Part shown: in pieces, positions 1-10,491 of the stretch
Layout: each line of letters begins with the position of its first letter
Numbering within the stretch: the stretch's first letter is position 1
DNA from: a virus
Lineage: Duplodnaviria > Heunggongvirae > Uroviricota > Caudoviricetes
IMG/VR virus record: IMGVR_UViG_3300025131_000004
Direction: 5' to 3' (one strand)
Length of the DNA: 10,491 nt
Notes under the pieces: generated by a model
What the model saw: the letters and a program-made list of their open reading frames with translations, nothing else
Database searches by the model: none
Told to the model about the DNA's origin: nothing
Made by a program: the position numbers and the translations under genes

Positions 1-95
1 TCAGTGATCTGCCGAAACTTTCCATTCTTTTTCTTTACTGAATAGATTCGATAGTAACTATGTCTATTCGCTAAGATGTCACTGAGTCCAGACAT
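1..95 (-). CDS. 5' end (partial, runs off window) of a probable retron-like reverse transcriptase
   Basis: ATG at 95 with AGGTGA upstream, overlapping the HNH 3' end by 25 nt. Translation: MSGLSDILANRHSYYRIYSVKKKNGKFRQIT(E). Y-x-x-(F/Y)-x-(I/V)-x-K-K-x-G-x-x-R-x-I is the typical first conserved block of retron/retron-like RTs. Only 31 codons are visible and no YxDD is in the window. Confidence 0.6.
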   Translation of the reverse strand, partial: MSGLSDILANRHSYYRIYSVKKKNGKFRQIT

Positions 96-718
96 TCTTC
101 TTCACCTGGTAGGAAGTTTCTCCATGAAGAATGAACCTTGCTGACTCCTGCTGTCATTGGTTTCCATTCTGGAATGTAAGGCTTCGATAGAAGTTTCATT
201 CCTGCTTCTTTTGGAGTTCTGTTCCCCTTCCTTTGATTGCACTTGATACATGCTGTCACACAATTATCAAAGTTGGTTCCAGGGAAACGCATGGTTGGAT
301 GGTTTCTTGGTATCACATGATCTATGTTGATACGCGGCCTGCCATTGCTATCTCTTCTGTTTCTCTTGAAATCATTACCACAGTACTGGCATCTATAGTT
401 GTCTCTTTCAAAGACACCACCTCTGCTGTATTTCAGTTCATGCCTAGGTAGTCTGTCGTACTTGGTAAGAATGACCACTCTAGGAACTAGGATGGGTGTT
501 CCTGGACCATGCCTAACAAAGTCCTCGAACAATTCCATCTGCTTTTCATTGACTGGCAGAGTTCTCCACGCAGAGAAATCATGAACCATTCCAGTTCTAT
601 GATCTAGAGCGTTTACCGTTCCAGAGCATAGTCTTGTGAATGCTCTTCCTACTTCAATGATATGAATAGGAAACCATTGTTTGTTTAGTACTAAAGTATC
701 ACCACGGATGCCCATCAT
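71..718 (-). CDS. HNH endonuclease (McrA/COG1403-like, Zn-binding)
   Basis: N-terminal LVLNxxWxP block, then ERDNYRCQYCG, IDHVIPR and NCVTACIKCNQRKG. AAGGAG RBS at 723-728. Start is 718 or 715. Confidence 0.93.
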   Translation of the reverse strand: MMGIRGDTLVLNKQWFPIHIIEVGRAFTRLCSGTVNALDHRTGMVHDFSAWRTLPVNEKQMELFEDFVRHGPGTPILVPRVVILTKYDRLPRHELKYSRGGVFERDNYRCQYCGNDFKRNRRDSNGRPRINIDHVIPRNHPTMRFPGTNFDNCVTACIKCNQRKGNRTPKEAGMKLLSKPYIPEWKPMTAGVSKVHSSWRNFLPGEEECLDSVTS

Positions 719-735
719 CCATCTCCTTTAGGTTG

Positions 736-960
736 TGGTAGTTTCAGGAATCGAACCCAAATGCAGACAATCCCCTCTGTGTTAACAAAAGTGGAAAGGT
801 GAATTGTGTGCTTACACCAGCTCTACCTTGAAATTCAATCCATAAGCTCCATGGCTTAGGTTCTCTTTGGCAATGCCCTTACTTAGCCTCTAACCATCAC
901 TCGTTTAAGAGGCACCGTAGGAATCAGATCGTCGTCTGCTCTGCTTATGAATCAAACTAC
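736..960 (-). ncRNA. Putative tRNA-like/tmRNA-like structured RNA with a ~160-nt insert in place of the anticodon loop
   Basis: Terminal helix GTAGTTT(960-954)/AAACTAC(744-738). T-arm-like TGGG-TTCGATT-CCTG (759-745). 8-bp helix GCAGACGA(939-932)/TTGTCTGC(770-763) sits in the anticodon-stem position. No canonical D-arm. Confidence 0.5.
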
Positions 961-963
961 AAG

Positions 964-991
964 CAAGGGGCCAGCTGTGCTGAGCCCCTTG
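964..991 (-). other. Near-perfect hairpin capped by a C-ACA-G triloop
   Basis: CAAGGGGC-TCAGC-ACA-GCTGG-CCCCTTG. The U-G pair is compatible on the minus strand. There is no good U-tract, so it is not clearly a terminator. Confidence 0.7.
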
Positions 992-1066
992 TATATGCTT
1001 ACCGTTCCTTAGAGGTCCCTATTGGTTTGTCTCTGTCCCTCATATTGGGTAAGCAATGCAGTCTAA

Positions 1067-2137
1067 TCAGACTGCCAGTTCTACCTCGGCTACTTGATCC
1101 TCAGTCGTCTCTACCACTTCGATCGTAGGAGTCTCTTCGACGACTGTCGCCTTCTTCTTCTTACGCTTTCGTGGATATGCAACCTTATAAAGGTCTAGCT
1201 CCTTCAGGGTGGTATCAAAGTTTACGATCTTCTCATGAGCAGCTTGGATAGCTGTTCTGGTCAAACGAACAGGAGTTATCCTGTTGGTGTTAGCCTTGAA
1301 GTAGACCATATGATAACCCAACGGTTCATGTCTCAATATTACTTGCAGTGCATTGTATAATACTTGTGCTGCAGTCATATTGACCGAAATACTTTGGGGG
1401 TTGGCCAAAGCTCTCATTGCACAGTTCTCAGGGTTTTCTGCTTCGGTGGGCAACAAGCCCATCTCTCCGAAAGCACTTGGGAACTGTTCAAAGAAACAAG
1501 GGAGCCTGAATGCCTTTGGAATAGGCACTTCTTCAGAATCTAAGTCTGGGTCTTCCAAAGCAGAGATGGTGTCCCTGCTTTGTCCTTTATACGCGATGAC
1601 CATTTGACCTGTGAACTGTTCGTTTCCTGAGTCCAACCAGAAAGTCTCTAGGTGCTCAGGTCTCTTCATGTACCACTTGAAGAACAGTGCTCTTGTCTTG
1701 TTGTTGTCTACGCATGTAATCAAGATAGGACTTGCGTTGGTAGATTGGGTATAGATCAGAGCATTGATGTCTTCGTTGCTCTCTAGATAGCCATTGTAGT
1801 AGGCGATATCAATGCCAAAGGCATTTGAATATCTCTTTGCCATGACTTCAGCTTTGTACTTGTTGACATCAGCTCTTACAAACTGTTGTCTTACAAGATT
1901 CTTATCTTCTACCTTGTCACCATCAACCAAGACCAGCCTTAGGCTGTCAGGTTTCTTGTTGCCCATGCCACCACGTCTCAACTTGTTGATGAGTGAGATG
2001 TATCGTGCCAGGTGTGGAATCAGATAGCCGCCAGTTCCTCCACATCCCACTACGATGACGACCTTGTCGATAGATCTATCGGAAGGCCCTCGATTATAAT
2101 AGCCGTGGAAGTTATGTACTGTATTAATTTCTCGCAT
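1067..2137 (-). CDS. ThiF/E1-like ubiquitin-activating enzyme (PRTRC-type ThiF)
   Basis: VGCGGTGG nucleotide-binding loop, VDGDKVEDKNLVRQQF, CVDN, WLDSGN, and candidate catalytic Cys in ENCAMRALANPQ. I prefer the start at 2137 (TAAGGA RBS just after the JAB stop) over 2206. Confidence 0.9.
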   Translation of the reverse strand: MREINTVHNFHGYYNRGPSDRSIDKVVIVVGCGGTGGYLIPHLARYISLINKLRRGGMGNKKPDSLRLVLVDGDKVEDKNLVRQQFVRADVNKYKAEVMAKRYSNAFGIDIAYYNGYLESNEDINALIYTQSTNASPILITCVDNNKTRALFFKWYMKRPEHLETFWLDSGNEQFTGQMVIAYKGQSRDTISALEDPDLDSEEVPIPKAFRLPCFFEQFPSAFGEMGLLPTEAENPENCAMRALANPQSISVNMTAAQVLYNALQVILRHEPLGYHMVYFKANTNRITPVRLTRTAIQAAHEKIVNFDTTLKELDLYKVAYPRKRKKKKATVVEETPTIEVVETTEDQVAEVELAV

Positions 2138-2144
2138 TGTATCC

Positions 2145-3464
2145 TTACTCGCCAAACGTTTCGCTTGTCTCGTGAAAATCTCGAAGAGCCTCGTTGATAG
2201 TTTCATTGTGACCTATGGCCGCCAATCTACCTACGATATGATAGATGTCATCTTGATCAGCTATGTTACAGATTGCATCGATGTAGTCGTAGATCGCTGC
2301 TTCGTCAGCAAGGAGCCAGCTGAACTCTTCGAATTGATCTGGAGGATCAATACCTACCAAGTATTCAGAGACCCAATCTGGATCTTCTCCGAAGGTATAA
2401 AGAAGCTCTCTATCATCCTTGCCAAGACCAAACTTCTCCCACCAGTCGACAGTCTGTTCACCAAAAGCATCTCTTATCTTCTGGATCCTGTCTTCTTCCT
2501 TCGGAAGGTAGTACGTCCTGCTCGGACCCCACTCCCCAAAGAGGCTCGGATCGAACGAGGACTTGGTCTTGAATTCAACTGGAATTCCATTGACGATTGA
2601 GTCTGGTCTGCCTTGAAAGCGGCTCCTTGGCCTGACAACCTGCTTTCTTGCAGCTACGTGTGCAATATTCGCCCGCCATACAGCTTCGGGAATTTCTACC
2701 ACAGGAATATTTTCCAATCCATCCACTGTGTCGGATTCGATATCAAAGATCTCGTCAAGACTAAGTGGAACCTCTTGACCTGTAACACAGGAGACTGCAC
2801 GCAAAGCCCATTCAGGCAGAGCTTTCTGGATCTTGCCAACTACTCCATAAAGTCTGAAGGCTTTCTCGTCAGCAGTGTCGGTTCCTGAAAAGTAACCAGA
2901 CATTGTGTTGTGAGAATGAATCTCCATAGCTGTGATGAGGTTCGGATCCGCTTCTTTGGTAAGATCACGCTCATAACGGACTCCACCCTTGCTGACCACA
3001 TGCTTGGGAACGTCAATGAAGTACTCCTGCTTCTCGATGTCAAAGTAGATGACTGCGTATGCCTCAGCCTCATTCATCTCTTTACAAATTTTTCTGAAAA
3101 AGGTGACGATCTGAGCAAAGTGATTGATTGGGATACGTGGAAGAGTGAGCTCAAAATTAGGCTCGACGTCTTCAGGGTGTCCAGGAATCTTGAACTCAGC
3201 TTCTCTTGTTGTAATTGTTCCAATTGGATTGCTTTCAATTACATAGAGACCATCACCACGGACAATCTTTGTTCGTGGCTTGTCATACGTACCACTCTCA
3301 GACACGTCGGTCACATAACCATAGTATCTATTTTGGAGCTGTTCTCTTACGGTGCTCTTGTTCTTTTGAGTTTCCATGACTGCCTCTTTCTTGGCAGCGG
3401 ATTGCCTATCAATCATATTTTTTAGAGCAGCGATGCTGCCATTCGTACTAGTAAGTTTGTCCAC
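2145..3464 (-). CDS. Prokaryotic JAB/JAMM peptidase (PRTRC protein A-like) with long acidic C-terminal extension
   Basis: EAEAYA...MEIHSHNTMSGYFSGTDTADE matches the JAMM motif E-x(n)-HSH-x7-S-x2-D. GTG start with GGGAG RBS. Confidence 0.88.
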   Translation of the reverse strand: MDKLTSTNGSIAALKNMIDRQSAAKKEAVMETQKNKSTVREQLQNRYYGYVTDVSESGTYDKPRTKIVRGDGLYVIESNPIGTITTREAEFKIPGHPEDVEPNFELTLPRIPINHFAQIVTFFRKICKEMNEAEAYAVIYFDIEKQEYFIDVPKHVVSKGGVRYERDLTKEADPNLITAMEIHSHNTMSGYFSGTDTADEKAFRLYGVVGKIQKALPEWALRAVSCVTGQEVPLSLDEIFDIESDTVDGLENIPVVEIPEAVWRANIAHVAARKQVVRPRSRFQGRPDSIVNGIPVEFKTKSSFDPSLFGEWGPSRTYYLPKEEDRIQKIRDAFGEQTVDWWEKFGLGKDDRELLYTFGEDPDWVSEYLVGIDPPDQFEEFSWLLADEAAIYDYIDAICNIADQDDIYHIVGRLAAIGHNETINEALRDFHETSETFGE

Positions 3465-4128
3465 TGAATGTCTCCCTGATTAGATCCTTGATGGTCTTGT
3501 TTAGCTGCTTCCCCTCAAGAGGAAAGGTTCCATTCCTGACACATGTTGAGATGAATCCATCAGTGCCACCTAGGTGGCCGTTGAATGGTGTTGAATAGAA
3601 TGCATTCACAACCCCTCTGCAAGAGGCGATGTCTGTAGCTTCAATACGATTGCTTCCCCAACAGATGGCACCACCGCTATACGTGTTGCCATAGCCTGTG
3701 AAGTTATACAGTGTATCGGTATCAAACTTGACGCCATGTTGAAGAGCAAAGACCTTGGAGTCTCTGTATCTATTTGGCTGCCGACCACCTCGTCCTGCTG
3801 CCTTGGGTGCACCTAGCTGGAAGGCAAAGATCAAGTGAGGAAATGGCACCTGCTTGATGATCTCTCCGGTATAGCCCCAACGAATGTCCACCTTACGAGG
3901 ACCACTCTGATAAAGAACTGCCTCTGTGTCACCTTGGCGGCCGACAAAGACAACGCCAGTATCAGAACAAGGCATCATGCCTGTATCAAATGCAGTTTCA
4001 GAAAAGAGATACTTCAAGTCATCAGGATTGATGGTCTTGGTAGACTGAGAGTTTCCTCGTACCTCTGTAATTGTGGTTCCCTGCTCATCGATTTCGATGA
4101 TCAGTTTGTCTGGATCAGTTCTTGGCAC
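3448..4128 (-). CDS. Prokaryotic E2 family D (PRTRC protein B-like) conjugating enzyme
   Basis: PFPHLIF, then LYNFTGYGNTYSGGAICWGSN with the candidate active-site Cys in ICWG, then FYSTPFN. It is adjacent to JAB and E1. Confidence 0.8.
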   Translation of the reverse strand: MPRTDPDKLIIEIDEQGTTITEVRGNSQSTKTINPDDLKYLFSETAFDTGMMPCSDTGVVFVGRQGDTEAVLYQSGPRKVDIRWGYTGEIIKQVPFPHLIFAFQLGAPKAAGRGGRQPNRYRDSKVFALQHGVKFDTDTLYNFTGYGNTYSGGAICWGSNRIEATDIASCRGVVNAFYSTPFNGHLGGTDGFISTCVRNGTFPLEGKQLNKTIKDLIRETFSGQTY

Positions 4129-5561: not shown

Positions 5562-5984
5562 TTATCGGTTTTGCAATCTGGTAACCGTAGCCTTGTAGGC
5601 TATGATTGAGCGTTGCAGACTCGCGTTCTCAGCAGTGAGACGTGCGATCTCTTCAGCAAGAGCGCCATCTTCTTCTACATCTACAGCAACGACACCCCAG
5701 ACATCAGTCTCGGGCACCTCCTCTGCAGCGAGATGATCAGCTAGAGCATCGCGTGCGTTCTCACGTGCGATCTCTACCTCATCCACTCGTAGAAGCAGGT
5801 CCTCAGCAGTTGCCAAGACTAGATCATCTAGTACTTCAGCATCATCACAGACGTTGACCACCAGGGCATTGCCTGCACGACCGATAACACTATGTAGTGC
5901 ACCGTTCTGCTTGACCTTGAGACTCCACTCACCAAAGTTCTCATCCATATCACTAATGAATTGACTTAGCGTCTTTGTACTCAT
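5562..5984 (-). CDS. Hypothetical acidic protein with C-terminal coiled coil
   Basis: GGAGG RBS. The tail LAEEIARLTAENASLQRSI has a heptad pattern. Confidence 0.8.
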   Translation of the reverse strand: MSTKTLSQFISDMDENFGEWSLKVKQNGALHSVIGRAGNALVVNVCDDAEVLDDLVLATAEDLLLRVDEVEIARENARDALADHLAAEEVPETDVWGVVAVDVEEDGALAEEIARLTAENASLQRSIIAYKATVTRLQNR

Positions 5985-7572
5985 TACTTTCCTCCACTAA
6001 TTTCAAGAGCTTATGTTGTTCGTTCAACTCGGGTTCATCTAGGACCCGCTCAAGAAGATTCTTTAAGATGCGACCATAAACAGGGCCAGGCTCTAGTCCC
6101 AACTCCTTCAGATCCTTGCCACCTATGGCAAGGTCATTCGTCTTCAGCGCATTGCTGTCTTTGATTGCTGCCTCGTACATATACTTGGCTAGCCTCTGAT
6201 GGAAGGTGGTTCCATGTTTCTTTCTATTTCCCGCTCTGTCCGCAGCACGAAGCAGCAGCAGGTCATAGAATTGTTGTTCACCACCTACCTTTCTGACCAA
6301 TCTTCTGATAGCTGACAGTGAGCTCTCATCCGAGATCTTTGTAGCATTGACAGAGCGATCTTCATTACACCTGGAACACTTGTCCTTGTCTGGTAGATAC
6401 GCTGGTCTGTCAGGTGCATACTTAGAGTAGTAACTACGCCAGATGTGTCCCTTGTCACACTTACTCTCATAAGTTTCACTGTCTAATCTAAAGAGATGGT
6501 ATCTGATCAGATTTGTAACCCTTTCACGAGTCTTGTTGCTGAATCGAAGCTGTTTAAGCTGCCGATCACCAATAGAAGCACCGATTGCATCATGTGCATA
6601 GAAGGTACAGTCTTCAACAACTTCCCTTACCTTTCCACACTTGATACAACCAGTACGATTCTCTGGTGCTCTTTTTCCACAACCTCTACATGTATAGGTG
6701 ATTCCCTTTGATTGGGGCTTTCCTACATCATGCAGCAAAGCTGCAAGCACCAGCTCTGGATCACTGGTGGTGTTCTTCATCGCTACACATGCCAGGACAC
6801 TATGAGTCCATACATCATCAGCATGATAGATATTCTGAAGGCATCCGATCGATGGAACCATCTTAGGAAGCAGATACCGTACCGCTCCTGTAGTTTTGAC
6901 CAGCTCAAGGCTTCTGAAGAGATTATCTCCTGAACCCTTGAACATCTTCATCAACTCGTCCCTTCTCCGTTCCCAAGACACAACAGACAGACCATCAATA
7001 TTTTTGGTCATCTCTTTCAGATCTCTGGAACGAATGAAGAAGCCTAGTTGAGATACAAACCTGATCCCTCTTAGGATTCGAAGATAGTCTTCCTGAATCC
7101 GATCGGCCGCCGCGCCTACAAAACGAATCGTCTTCTTGTTGATATCTTTGATACCATCAAAAGGATCAACTAGTTTTTGCGATTCGACATCAAAAGCAAT
7201 GGCATTCATCGTAAAGTCACGACGAGCCAGGTCTTCCTCAATGGTCTTAGCCCACTCTACTGTGGCTTTACGACCATCAGTGGTTATATCTTTACGGAAG
7301 GTAGTAACCTCAATGCTTTCGGATTCAGAGAAACAACCTCTCTGCAGAATGGTCATAGTTCCGTGGGCCTCTCCCGTTGGAACCACTCTCCATTCTTTTC
7401 CTGCGAAAGCAATACACATCTCATCAGGAGTTGCATTGGTAGCGATATCTATATCGTTGAAAGGCCTGCCAATCAAGGCATCACGAACACACCCACCTAC
7501 GTAGTAGGCTTGGTAACCGCTATCAATCAGGCGAGTAGCAACTGCCTTGGCTGTCTTTGAAACTGTAATCAT
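5953..7572 (-). CDS. cca: Class II tRNA nucleotidyltransferase (CCA-adding type) with HD domain and two Cys-rich insertions
   Basis: VGGCVRD, DIDIAT, DLARRDFTMNA, EDYLRILR (EDxxR templating motif), and the HD-domain motifs YHADDVWTHS and ALLHDVGK. Confidence 0.9.
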   Translation of the reverse strand: MITVSKTAKAVATRLIDSGYQAYYVGGCVRDALIGRPFNDIDIATNATPDEMCIAFAGKEWRVVPTGEAHGTMTILQRGCFSESESIEVTTFRKDITTDGRKATVEWAKTIEEDLARRDFTMNAIAFDVESQKLVDPFDGIKDINKKTIRFVGAAADRIQEDYLRILRGIRFVSQLGFFIRSRDLKEMTKNIDGLSVVSWERRRDELMKMFKGSGDNLFRSLELVKTTGAVRYLLPKMVPSIGCLQNIYHADDVWTHSVLACVAMKNTTSDPELVLAALLHDVGKPQSKGITYTCRGCGKRAPENRTGCIKCGKVREVVEDCTFYAHDAIGASIGDRQLKQLRFSNKTRERVTNLIRYHLFRLDSETYESKCDKGHIWRSYYSKYAPDRPAYLPDKDKCSRCNEDRSVNATKISDESSLSAIRRLVRKVGGEQQFYDLLLLRAADRAGNRKKHGTTFHQRLAKYMYEAAIKDSNALKTNDLAIGGKDLKELGLEPGPVYGRILKNLLERVLDEPELNEQHKLLKLVEESNEYKDAKSIH

Positions 7573-7574
7573 GA

Positions 7575-8240
7575 TTATGCACCTACGATTTGATCGACCA
7601 TTCCCTTCTTACCGTACTCCAAACAATCCTCTGGACTCATCCAATAGTCATGCTTCAAGTCTGATCGAACCTTGGACTTACGTTGTCCACAAGTCTTTGC
7701 GATTCGATTTACTGCCTGTTCATGAAGCATCTCTGTCCACCTCATGTCATCTTTCAACTCTTGGTATGTACCCCAAGCTATAGATGATAATTGATGAATC
7801 ATCATATAAGAGCTGGGTGTGATAACCCTGCCCCCTGGAGCACCACTCATAGCAATGAGAGCACCCATGCTTGCAGCATAGCCTTCTACATATGTGATGA
7901 CTGGTGAACTGATGGCGTTCATGCAATCAATGATTGCATTCCCATCGATGATGCTACCTCCAGGAGAATTGATGTACATGATAATAGGGGGATTCATATC
8001 CCACCTATTATATTCAGCATCATATTCTCTTAGGGCTCTAATGATCTTGGAAGATACCGTCGTTCCAATTGGCTTGTCCAGATAGATTTCTCTTCGCTCA
8101 TCAACAATGATGATCTCGTTTTGATCTCCACCCAAGCTACTCTTTGTTCCCTTCTTCTCAGAAGGAGTTGAGGAATTAGTAGGCGGTCGTCTGTTCAGTA
8201 ACCTGTTCAAATCGAACGGGTGAGTTGCGGAGTGACTCAA
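7575..8240 (-). CDS. clpP: ClpP-family serine protease subunit
   Basis: YINSPGGS, AASMG (catalytic Ser), MIHQ (His), HDYWMS (Asp region). TTG start with GGGAG RBS; the exact start is uncertain. Confidence 0.92.
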   Translation of the reverse strand: MSHSATHPFDLNRLLNRRPPTNSSTPSEKKGTKSSLGGDQNEIIIVDERREIYLDKPIGTTVSSKIIRALREYDAEYNRWDMNPPIIMYINSPGGSIIDGNAIIDCMNAISSPVITYVEGYAASMGALIAMSGAPGGRVITPSSYMMIHQLSSIAWGTYQELKDDMRWTEMLHEQAVNRIAKTCGQRKSKVRSDLKHDYWMSPEDCLEYGKKGMVDQIVGA

Positions 8241-9592: not shown

Positions 9593-10491
9593 TTAGAAGT
9601 TCTTTCGAATGTATTCGATAGTAGGGGTCACCTTCTTATCTCCTACGCTCTCCAGTCCTTCAAACTGTGCGAAAGTATTGAAGATCTTCTCAGACCATCC
9701 AGATACCAGATTCACATTCTTGTCTTCGGACGGAACCTGAGATCCACTTCCGTAAGGCATGAGGTCGACTGAATGAATCTTGACCTCTCTATTATATTTT
9801 CTACGATAGCTGTCTATTGCACTGTATAGGGCTGGCGCATCTGCTCCATATCCCATACTTCCATAGCACTGCATGTCGGAAAGGATGACAATCCTATCGA
9901 CCCTTAGCTTAGAAGCACTAAGCAACTCGACTGCCTTATGAGCATAGGTTGCATGACCACACTTCCTTGCTGCAGTCTGAATCTTACCCATCGTAGCAAT
10001 GACAGAGTCATTCTTGTTCAGGACTGCCATCGCTGCTGACTGTCCGAATGGAATGACTACTCCATTCTCAGATGCCTTGAAACAGATAGCTCCCATCAAC
10101 TGAGAGACCTGCGCTGCATTGAGTGAAGACCTCTGAGAGACCGTCGCTCCATACATGGACCCAGAGACATCGACCAGCACTGCAGTGTTACCTGACAGTT
10201 CTACGATGTTCTCTACGGACATATCCAAAGCACGTTCAACGGCTGCTTGTAGATTCTGTACTGAGAAATGATTGACAGCCGTTGCTCGAGGAGCAGCGTA
10301 ATCATATCCACTATAGAAATTACTTGCTGCTGAGAACTTCTTTGTCTCTGCCCCTGCCTCTTCCAATGCGATTCCTGCTGTGAAGAATCTAAATGGAAGC
10401 TGACGAGACCTTGCGACCTGCTCAGGGTCGGTAAGCTTTGCAACTACAGTAGCTATCGTAGTTTGAGAGACATTGGCCTGAACCAAGTTCC
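9593..10491 (-). CDS. TROVE-domain + vWA protein (Ro60/Rsr/TEP1-like), 5' part outside window
   Basis: RQLPFRF block, vWA MIDAS motif VLVDVSGSM, RIVILSDMQ, and SVDLMPYG. The frame is open to the window edge. Confidence 0.88.
   Translation of the reverse strand, partial: NLVQANVSQTTIATVVAKLTDPEQVARSRQLPFRFFTAGIALEEAGAETKKFSAASNFYSGYDYAAPRATAVNHFSVQNLQAAVERALDMSVENIVELSGNTAVLVDVSGSMYGATVSQRSSLNAAQVSQLMGAICFKASENGVVIPFGQSAAMAVLNKNDSVIATMGKIQTAARKCGHATYAHKAVELLSASKLRVDRIVILSDMQCYGSMGYGADAPALYSAIDSYRRKYNREVKIHSVDLMPYGSGSQVPSEDKNVNLVSGWSEKIFNTFAQFEGLESVGDKKVTPTIEYIRKNF

What the first reader, a model, noticed from the sequence alone, without database searches (positions are those of the whole stretch)
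1..95. Hidden reverse-transcriptase start coupled to the HNH gene
The ORF track misses a short open frame at the window edge: MSGLSDILANRHSYYRIYSVKKKNGKFRQIT(E). The sequence shows the ATG, RBS and 25-nt overlap with HNH. The Y..Y.VKK.NG..R.I block is known to open retron-type RT domains. By inference the 3' end of this operon is ncRNA -> HNH -> RT, a compact RNA/nuclease/RT module in a phage-like genome. It lacks the ATPase that accompanies HNH in PtuAB-type (type I-A) retrons, at least upstream of the RT.
Basis: partly seen in the sequence, partly recalled or inferred. Interest (0 to 1): 0.82.

Follow-up and report, generated by a model that had tools for sequence, protein, structure and literature searches.

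The report
Phage retron-type RT behind inserted HNH
The short open frame at the window edge is the true start of an intact retron-type reverse transcriptase of an uncultured marine giant phage, but the HNH nuclease gene and folded RNA in front of it look like a later insertion, not the enzyme's original partners.

Summary
Window 3..95(-) is the first 31 codons of a 289-aa ORF that continues past the window edge. The ORF carries every retron RT hallmark (NAxxH, YADD, VTG). It scores as a retron RT in PADLOC, NCBIfam and against solved structures.

A tree and gene-context comparison show this RT is a core gene of a family of large phages. There it directly abuts a ThiF/E1 gene of a PRTRC-like E2-JAB-E1 cassette and is followed by a small protein and an SSB-tailed SpoVG-like protein. 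Only one subclade (this phage and four relatives) has the 240-350 nt structured RNA plus HNH wedged between E1 and RT, so a single insertion is the most parsimonious history.

The HNH protein belongs to a generic PLMP+HNH (IshB-like) family. In 87 of 88 loci that family has no RT nearby, and in 11 of 88 it sits just behind a genuine tRNA. This explains the tRNA-like 3' end of the gap RNA. No PtuA ATPase is present, no retron msr/msd could be shown, and HNH-RT binding is untested.

This scan has already found the E2/JAB/E1 + retron-RT pairing on other phage DNA. What is new here is the inserted RNA-HNH cassette.

The parts
3..95 (-). First 31 codons of the retron-type RT. The gene continues beyond window position 1 to G000:C1:26356 and is 289 aa in all.
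   Evidence: motifs NAxxH, YADD and VTG lie in the extension
102..107 (-). SD-like AGGTGA, 6 nt upstream of the RT ATG, inside the HNH coding sequence
   Evidence: read from the sequence
71..718 (-). HNH nuclease gene, 215 aa, with an N-terminal PLMP-like domain plus a CxxC...DH...N...CxxC...N HNH core (IshB-like architecture). It stops with TAG and overlaps the RT start by 25 nt.
   Evidence: Pfam HNH 5e-10; AF2 model pLDDT 88.6; N-terminal domain aligns to residues 1-53 of eight IscB/IsrB structures, Z 4.0-5.0; invariant catalytic and Zn residues
719..1066 (-). 348-nt non-coding stretch between ThiF and HNH. It is a structured RNA region made of a 5' Y-shaped domain, a middle part and a tRNA-like 3' module.
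   Evidence: no ORF; whole-region fold z -2.5; present only in the HNH+ subclade
948..1069 (-). 5' Y-shaped RNA domain with a 12-bp closing helix and two hairpins. It begins at the ThiF stop codon.
   Evidence: dG -48.5 kcal/mol, z -6.2, 0 of 200 shuffles as stable; L007 counterpart z -3.1
736..960 (-). tRNA/tmRNA-TLD-like module. It has a T-arm (UUGGG|UUCGAUU|CCUGA, loop at 755-749) and an acceptor-like 3' strand AAACUAC at 744-738. That strand pairs with GUAGUUU at 960-954; an alternative local partner is GGUAG at about 827-823.
   Evidence: the same topology with different paired sequences occurs in L003, L005 and L007; not a canonical tRNA
1067..2206 (-). ThiF/E1-like gene (PRTRC ThiF-like). 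It is the conserved upstream neighbour of the RT across the phage family.
   Evidence: Pfam ThiF 7e-15; TIGR03736 100.7 bits; synteny
2145..3464 (-). JAB-like gene (PRTRC_A-like)
3448..4128 (-). Prok-E2_D / PRTRC_B-like E2 gene

Best explanation
The frame at 3..95(-) starts an intact, probably active retron-clade reverse transcriptase. This RT is a vertically inherited core gene of a family of large uncultured phages. Its ancestral setting is E2 - JAB - ThiF(E1) | RT - small protein - SpoVG-like protein with an SSB-type tail, with E1 and RT translationally coupled.

In the ancestor of one subclade (this marine phage, L003/4, L005/6, L007, L010), a cassette landed exactly in the E1|RT junction and has been inherited with the RT since. 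The cassette consists of a structured RNA with a tRNA-derived 3' module plus a PLMP+HNH (IshB-like) nuclease gene, of the kind that normally sits behind tRNA genes in phage tRNA arrays.

Shown: the gene, its motifs, its family, the synteny, the polarity of the insertion, the HNH architecture, and the tRNA link of the HNH family.

Inferred: (1) the RT makes a small cDNA or ssDNA from an RNA template that is not yet identified, and the SSB-tailed SpoVG-like protein handles it; (2) the HNH cassette is a selfish or homing-type passenger, now co-expressed with the RT only because of the tight phage gene packing; (3) the tRNA-like module acts as a processing or CCA-addition signal at the 5' side of the HNH-RT message.
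For: RT identity: 289-aa ORF with NAxxH, YADD and VTG; RVT_1; PADLOC retron RT_III-A 236 bits, then XIII, II-A, X; NCBIfam retron St85 208 bits against group II 59 and Drt 46 or less; best solved relatives are Ec86, Kva2, Ec78, Ec67 and Ec83 RTs. All motifs are invariant in 15 family members.

Core-gene status: ThiF abuts or overlaps the RT in L008/9, L126 and L127. E2-JAB-ThiF-RT is conserved in eight loci, including L026 at 31% RT identity. SpoVG follows the RT even in L026. A conserved small protein lies between RT and SpoVG.

Insertion polarity: the HNH+ RTs form one clade (88/93), sister to the HNH-less L008, inside a 99/93 phage clade whose other branch is HNH-less. HNH and RT identities co-vary within the subclade.

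HNH is generic: only 1 of 88 family loci has an RT, and the nearest outgroups have none. 11 of 88 lie 18-150 nt behind a real same-strand tRNA. PLMP-like N-terminal domain.

tRNA-like module: T-arm plus a 6-7 bp terminal helix in all four genomes, with different sequences; 2-4% of shuffles match it in three of the four.
Against: All loci with the ThiF-RT pair are syntenic relatives, so adjacency may reflect shared ancestry rather than function. HNH has kept intact catalytic residues and its overlap with the RT across a deep subclade (48-64% identity), which also fits a recruited, functional partner. The 5' gap domain is a very stable Y-shaped RNA (z -6.2) with a closing helix and two hairpins, a shape compatible with a retron msr-msd. 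No alternative template RNA was found next to the RT in the HNH-less phages. No expression or biochemical data exist.
Confidence: 0.6

Rival explanations
1. One reading: ncRNA -> HNH -> RT is one tripartite retron. The gap RNA (its Y-shaped 5' domain) is the msr-msd template, and the HNH is a stand-alone nuclease effector held in check by msDNA. This would be an ATPase-less relative of type I-A retrons, used by the phage for superinfection exclusion or counter-defence.
For: Retron-clade RT. Structured RNA upstream with a closing helix plus two hairpins, z -6.2. HNH and RT are co-inherited and overlapping in five diverged genomes. HNH catalytic residues are intact.
Against: An RT with the same architecture exists without HNH or RNA in the sister and outgroup phages. 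The HNH family is not RT-dedicated, at 1 of 88 loci. PtuB similarity is confined to the HNH core at 25 bits, and there is no PtuA. The RNA is separated from the RT by the whole HNH gene, unlike the nearest ordinary retrons, where the gap lies directly before the RT. No Rfam retron msr hit. The 3' third of the RNA is tRNA-like, not msd-like.
Confidence: 0.17
2. The gap RNA is a guide or scaffold (omega-RNA-like) for the IshB-like PLMP+HNH protein. Together they form an RNA-guided nickase or homing unit that works independently of the RT.
For: PLMP-like N-terminal domain matched to IscB/IsrB residues 1-53. HNH core is closest to IscB/Cas9. The structured RNA ends just before the HNH RBS, as omega-RNAs do in IscB loci. 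IshB is described as PLMP+HNH, and omega-RNAs are reported for the family (PMC10734217, PMC11610941).
Against: Fold scores are low (Z of 5 or less). Most family members have short upstream gaps (median 62 nt) or a plain tRNA upstream. No IS200/605 features were seen. No guide-target match was sought or found.
Confidence: 0.1
3. The RT belongs to another RT class (a diversity-generating retroelement, a group II intron, or an Abi/DRT defence RT) rather than the retron clade.
For: Motif 1 alone (Y..Y.VKK.G..R.I) is shared by several prokaryotic RT classes. Phage RTs are classically DGR RTs.
Against: LPQGACTSP, NAxxH and VTG are retron-type (Mestre 2020, PMC7736814). There is no TR/VR repeat pair anywhere near. 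Group II model 59 bits against a cut-off of 300, and Drt models 46 bits or less. No intron RNA in Rfam.
Confidence: 0.03

Closest known systems
Bacterial retrons, nearest by RT sequence to type III-A (PRTase-associated) and the St85 / Ec86 (II-A) RT families (Mestre et al. 2020, PMC7736814)
   Same: RT of about 290 aa with region X NAxxH, YADD and region Y VTG. Best HMM and solved-structure matches are retron RTs. The nearest bacterial relatives, L128 and L129, are PRTase-CE + gap + RT loci.
   Different: It is carried by a lytic-type giant phage as a core gene. Its neighbours are E2/JAB/E1 and a SpoVG-like protein, not any of the 13 catalogued effector types. No msr-msd was shown. In the HNH-less relatives there is no non-coding space at all before the RT.
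Type I-A retrons (Retron-Eco7/Ec78: ncRNA + RT + PtuA ATPase + PtuB HNH; PMC12673091, PMC12475279)
   Same: A retron-clade RT sits next to an HNH nuclease gene.
   Different: There is no PtuA ATPase. The HNH has a PLMP+HNH architecture and matches PtuB only over the HNH core (25 bits). The HNH lies between the RNA and the RT. The HNH is absent from sister phages.
IshB / IscB / IsrB OMEGA nucleases (Altae-Tran 2021, as reviewed in PMC10734217 and PMC11610941)
   Same: About 200 aa, an N-terminal PLMP-like domain plus HNH, no RuvC, and a long structured RNA directly upstream of the ORF.
   Different: No IS200/605 context. The fold match is weak (Z 4-5). The family more often follows tRNA genes than long non-coding RNAs. 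RNA guidance is untested.
Free-standing HNH homing endonucleases in phage tRNA gene clusters (for example T4 SegB-type and T5 tRNA-region HNH genes; from my own knowledge, not checked here)
   Same: The HNH gene lies immediately downstream of a tRNA or tRNA-like element in a large phage. It is patchily distributed among relatives and inserted between two otherwise adjacent genes.
   Different: Here the tRNA is degenerate (tmRNA-TLD-like, with no D stem and a poor anticodon arm) and is preceded by an extra, very stable RNA domain. No cleavage site or homing is shown.
PRTRC cassettes (ParB-related, ThiF-related; TIGR03735-03737) and Bil/CBASS-type E1-E2-JAB systems
   Same: E2-like, JAB and ThiF/E1 genes lie in one operon directly upstream of the RT.
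   Different: All three score below the NCBIfam cut-offs. They are phage-borne and coupled to an RT and a SpoVG-like protein. I found no published description of this pairing.

Membership tests
Retron (RT component) | RT with region X NAxxH between RT2 and RT3, YxDD, and region Y VTG in RT7 | tested here: met
   TNAELH, YADD and SVTG in P0003, invariant in 15 relatives; PADLOC retron RT models at 1.6e-70; definition from PMC7736814
Retron (whole system) | msr-msd ncRNA with a1/a2 inverted repeats and a branching G, next to the RT | tested here: inconclusive
   The Y-shaped domain at 948-1069 has a 12-bp closing helix and two hairpins. However, it lies about 850 nt from the RT start (window 948 versus 95), behind the HNH gene. 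It has no Rfam hit and no clear unpaired G after the 5' strand, and it is absent in sister phages.
Retron (whole system) | RT-dependent msDNA | not testable with these tools
   Needs expression and nucleic-acid extraction.
Retron type I-A (Septu-like) | PtuA ABC/SMC-type ATPase encoded with the HNH | tested here: not met
   No ATPase among the genes from ClpP to the tmRNA.
Retron type I-A (Septu-like) | PtuB-family HNH | tested here: inconclusive
   PADLOC PtuB 2.5e-06, 25 bits, HNH core only. The profile found no PtuB chain in the PDB at E 0.01 or better.
IshB-like (OMEGA family) nuclease | N-terminal PLMP domain | tested here: inconclusive
   The top eight VIA-align rows are IscB/IsrB residues 1-53, but Z is only 4.0-5.0 and Foldseek E is 0.3-1.4. 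The sequence motif VLVLN..W.PI....V..AF resembles PLMP.
IshB-like (OMEGA family) nuclease | HNH domain present, RuvC absent, about 180-200 aa | tested here: met
   215 aa with HNH, HNH_5 and HNH_4 only; NCBIfam IscB and Cas9 HNH region; model
IshB-like (OMEGA family) nuclease | IS200/605 context with a guide-bearing omega-RNA | not tested
   No transposon ends or TnpA were looked for beyond the Pfam scans of neighbours, and no guide-target search was done.
tRNA / tmRNA | Matches the tRNA or tmRNA covariance model, or ARAGORN at default settings | tested here: not met
   Window: none; only at ARAGORN ps60. L003 gets a marginal tRNA-Ile call. No similarity to the phage's own tmRNA.
Diversity-generating retroelement | Template/variable repeat pair near the RT | tested here: not met
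   No direct repeats of 40 nt or more in the window or L001, and none within 15 kb in a self-BLAST of the record.
Group II intron RT | Maturase-type RT scoring above the family cut-off, with intron RNA domains | tested here: not met
   TIGR04416 58.7 bits against a cut-off of 300; no intron family in Rfam
PRTRC cassette | ThiF, protein A (JAB) and protein B (E2) above NCBIfam cut-offs | tested here: not met
   100.7 against 144.75, 44.1 against 101.8, and 23.7 against 131.45 bits. These are related genes, not members.

The most novel reading that the evidence does not exclude
After its insertion, the RNA + PLMP-HNH cassette has been wired to the RT. The structured RNA (Y-domain plus tRNA-like 3' end) would be the RT's template or primer, and the HNH would be its nuclease arm. 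That would give an ATPase-less RNA/nuclease/RT machine in a lytic giant phage. It would be either a new retron type with a stand-alone HNH effector, or a nick-primed (target-primed) reverse-transcription element built from separate IshB-like and retron-like parts.
Probability: 0.15. Interest if true: 0.85.

Novelty: new variant of a known kind. Interest (0 to 1): 0.5.

Why it matters
Retrons are known as bacterial anti-phage systems. Here a retron-clade RT is a conserved core gene of large lytic-type phages, tied to a ubiquitin-like E2/JAB/E1 cassette and an SSB-tailed nucleic-acid-binding protein. I found no publication describing this setting, and its function is unknown.

This window adds a natural experiment. 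One subclade carries an RNA + IshB-like HNH cassette at the E1|RT junction, and its sisters do not. Comparing the two forms could show whether the RT needs a nearby RNA. It could also show whether PLMP+HNH proteins use their upstream RNAs, and what tRNA-like modules do in phage messages.

In practical terms, the case also shows that an ORF cut by a window edge can hide a gene that changes the reading of a locus.

Tried and rejected
(1) Complex prediction on RT (A3) + HNH (A4) gave no verdict, score 0.00. It is not evidence either way.

(2) The look-up of sequencing runs listed no RNA holder; only marine and vent DNA metagenomes hold the stretch. Read laying on four runs showed near-identical contigs, three SNPs, no joints and no insertion-less variant, so it says nothing about expression or mobility.

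(3) Rfam at permissive thresholds found nothing in the gap of the window or its relatives, including tRNA, tmRNA, retron msr and group I/II introns.

(4) The idea that the gap RNA is a copy of the phage's own tmRNA was rejected: the local alignment score equals the shuffled mean.

(5) ARAGORN finds no tRNA in the window at default settings. The tmRNA call at ps60 has no tag and is not trustworthy.

(6) The viral contigs and metagenome-contig scans gave no further members of the HNH+ subclade. Covariation therefore rests on only four genomes, and MAFFT alignment of the gaps is poor (49% column identity).

(7) No cultured phage has a close RT relative; the best is 34%.

(8) I looked for an RNA between RT and SpoVG. 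That stretch encodes a conserved small protein, and the L127 gap there is unstructured (z -0.7).

(9) The promoter/terminator consensus scan found nothing useful in the gap.

(10) Whole-protein Foldseek of the HNH model sees only the HNH core. The N-terminal domain had to be folded separately.

(11) There is no second copy of the HNH or the RT in the 120-kb record.

Full report
**Observation.** The window is G000:C1:27128-37618 of a 120,396-bp virus record that CheckV estimates as 56% complete. The ORF listing reports a 3'-open ORF at 3..95(-) with an ATG start. The HNH ORF at 71..718(-) ends with TAG at 73-71 and the RT ATG is at 95-93, so the overlap is 25 nt. An SD-like AGGTGA lies 6 nt upstream of the ATG. 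In the stored record the frame continues to a 289-aa ORF (L001:726-1595(-), P0003). One base differs between the window (position 25, A) and the record (G), which changes residue 24 from N to S.

**What the ORF is.** P0003 contains TNAELH (region X, NAxxH), YTRYADD and QSVTG (region Y). These are the retron RT signatures as defined by Mestre et al. 2020 (PMC7736814).
- It matches Pfam RVT_1 at 6.5e-21.
- It matches 83 PADLOC retron RT models. The best is RT_III-A (236 bits), followed by XIII, II-A and X.
- It matches NCBIfam 'retron St85 family' at 208 bits (cut-off 235), against 59 bits for group II intron RT and 46 or less for the Drt models.
- A profile of the six closest homologues finds Ec86, Kva2, Ec78, Ec67 and Ec83 retron RTs as the best solved structures (3e-45 to 4e-30). 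Group II RTs come in near 1e-12.
- There is no DGR-type template/variable repeat and no intron RNA.
- Two relatives at 36-38% identity (L128, L129) are ordinary PRTase-CE + gap + RT loci, that is, type III-A-like bacterial retrons.

**Context across relatives.** A search of 5.8 billion proteins gave five relatives at 53-58% identity, one at 42%, and a group of about 255 aa at 38-47%.
- The neighbourhoods of the 53-58% group (L003/4, L005/6, L007, L010) read ThiF, a 240-350 nt gap, HNH, RT, a small ORF, SpoVG, tmRNA, and further on Whirly.
- In L008/L009 (42%), L126 and L127 (about 43%) the ThiF gene overlaps the RT start by 1-8 nt. There is no gap and no HNH.
- tblastn with the window's upstream proteins shows E2-JAB-ThiF-RT conserved in all of these, and in L026 (RT 31% identical, 188-kb contig). 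In L026 an unrelated 196-aa ORF with no Pfam match occupies the ThiF|RT slot, and SpoVG again follows the RT.
- All catalytic and retron-signature residues are invariant in 15 family members.
- A maximum-likelihood tree puts the phage ThiF-coupled RTs in one clade (99/93). Inside it the five HNH+ RTs form a clade (88/93) sister to HNH-less L008, and the other branch is HNH-less.

One gain of 'gap + HNH' is therefore the most parsimonious history. RT architecture does not differ between L008 and the HNH+ clade.

**The HNH protein.** P0002 has Pfam HNH/HNH_5/HNH_4 domains, invariant CxxC...DH...N...CxxC...N residues and a confident AlphaFold model (pLDDT 88.6).
- Foldseek sees only the HNH core, matching Cas9, IscB and McrA.
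- Folded alone, residues 1-95 (pLDDT 85) hit IscB/IsrB first.
- VIA-align places eight IscB/IsrB entries at the top, each aligned over its own residues 1-53, which is the PLMP domain. Z is only 4.0-5.0.
- PLMP + HNH without RuvC is the architecture described for IshB (PMC10734217, PMC11610941).
- Similarity to PtuB is limited to the HNH core (25 bits), and no ATPase is encoded nearby.

The family is not RT-dedicated. Of 88 family loci from viral and metagenome scans, only the one from this clade has an RT within the flanks. The nearest outgroups at 37-41% identity lie in a bacterial chromosome and in other giant phages without an RT. Instead, 11 of the 88 lie 18-150 nt downstream of a genuine same-strand tRNA, often inside tRNA arrays. 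Within the subclade, HNH identity (64, 53, 52, 48%) tracks RT identity (58, 55, 54, 54%), so the two genes have been inherited together since the insertion.

**The 348-nt gap.** It matches no Rfam family even at E up to 10 and is not similar to the phage's own tmRNA.
- Its 3' part has a canonical T-arm (UUGGG|UUCGAUU|CCUGA) followed by a 7-nt acceptor-like strand.
- All four genomes show the same topology: a terminal helix, a 9-15 nt spacer without a D stem, a central helix, and the T-arm.
- The terminal-helix sequences differ between genomes: GUAGUUU/AAACUAC, GGACAU/AUGUCC, UGGUACG/CGUACCA and GGUGGUA/UGCCACC. The helix is matched by 2-4% of shuffles in three genomes and is not significant in L003.
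- ARAGORN calls a marginal tRNA-Ile in L003 at default settings. It calls nothing in the window unless the threshold is lowered a great deal.
- This agrees with the earlier unchecked note e1-5436098. Given how often this HNH family follows real tRNAs, it is best read as a tRNA-derived module.
- The 5' 122 nt (948-1069) fold into a very stable Y shape (-48.5 kcal/mol, z -6.2). L007 has a comparable domain (z -3.1).
- In the window, the 3' strand of that Y domain is also the distal partner of the acceptor strand, so the two folds exclude each other.

Whether the Y domain is a retron msr-msd, an omega-RNA-like scaffold or something else cannot be decided from four poorly alignable sequences.

**Downstream genes.**
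- The stretch between RT and SpoVG encodes a conserved 55-70-aa protein, including an uncalled ORF in L005.
- The SpoVG-like proteins end in an SSB-like ...(I/P)PF tail.
- A tmRNA follows.
- Upstream of the E2/JAB/E1 genes lie a CCA-adding enzyme and ClpP.

**Earlier notes and the literature.** This scan has already reported the E2/JAB/E1 + retron-type RT pairing in other phage genomes, once with an SSB-tailed SpoVG-like protein (e1-1833665 and others). I confirmed the pairing independently only within this syntenic phage family, so shared ancestry remains a confounder. I found no publication describing it. Retron-type RTs in cultured jumbo staphylococcal phages are annotated but unexplained.

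**Verdict.** The proposed RNA/HNH/RT triad is most likely not the ancestral functional unit. The RT belongs to a phage E2-JAB-E1 | RT - small protein - SpoVG module. The RNA + IshB-like HNH is a subclade-specific, tRNA-linked insertion at the E1|RT junction (confidence about 0.6). Recruitment of the cassette into RT function stays possible (about 0.15-0.2) and is directly testable.

Noticed in passing
window 25 (= L001 about 1526): The window and the stored record differ by a single base (A versus G), changing RT residue 24 from N to S.
   Followed up: yes
window 71-73; G000:C1 c43654-43727: The HNH gene stops with TAG, and the phage carries a CTA-anticodon (amber suppressor) tRNA. Read-through would add 11 residues (RIDIVTIESIQ) before a TAA. 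The ThiF gene of L003 also ends in TAG.
   Followed up: partly
L001:225-593(-); L005:6134-6505; L127:5901-6263: The SpoVG-like proteins downstream of the RT all end in an SSB-like C-terminal tip (...APIPF, ...GNPPF, ...MDVIPF). This suggests they dock onto partners of the host SSB.
   Followed up: partly
L001:593-781(-); L005:5908-6120; L003:6233-6436; L009:5944-6102: A conserved 55-70-aa protein of unknown function overlaps the 3' end of the RT gene. It was not called in L005.
   Followed up: partly
L044, L045, L069, L122, L090, L093, L062, L065, L052, L085, L088: Members of the PLMP+HNH (IshB-like) family sit 18-150 nt behind genuine same-strand tRNA genes, often inside phage tRNA arrays (11 of 88 loci). 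'tRNA then HNH' therefore looks like a recurrent unit.
   Followed up: partly
window 954-960 versus 738-744 and 1057-1068: GUAGUUU can pair with the 5' strand of the Y-shaped domain or with the acceptor-like 3' strand of the tRNA-like module. These are two mutually exclusive folds and could act as an RNA switch.
   Followed up: no
L026:2409-2999: In a distant relative (RT 31% identical), a different 196-aa ORF with no Pfam match occupies the same ThiF|RT slot. The junction seems to tolerate or attract insertions.
   Followed up: partly
window 5953-7572, 7575-8240, 9593-10486; G000:C1 c25373-25778: A CCA-adding enzyme with an HD domain, a ClpP-like protease, a Ro60/TROVE gene and a tmRNA (tag ADMIESIETVFAGLRADFAMIFGSGELALA) all lie within about 12 kb of the RT. 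This is an RNA-repair/quality-control type neighbourhood.
   Followed up: partly
L008:4019-4066 and L009:6830-6877: Only a 48-nt fragment matches the tmRNA model in the gap after SpoVG in the L008/L009 phage, and ARAGORN finds no tmRNA there. This may be a divergent or degenerate tmRNA.
   Followed up: no
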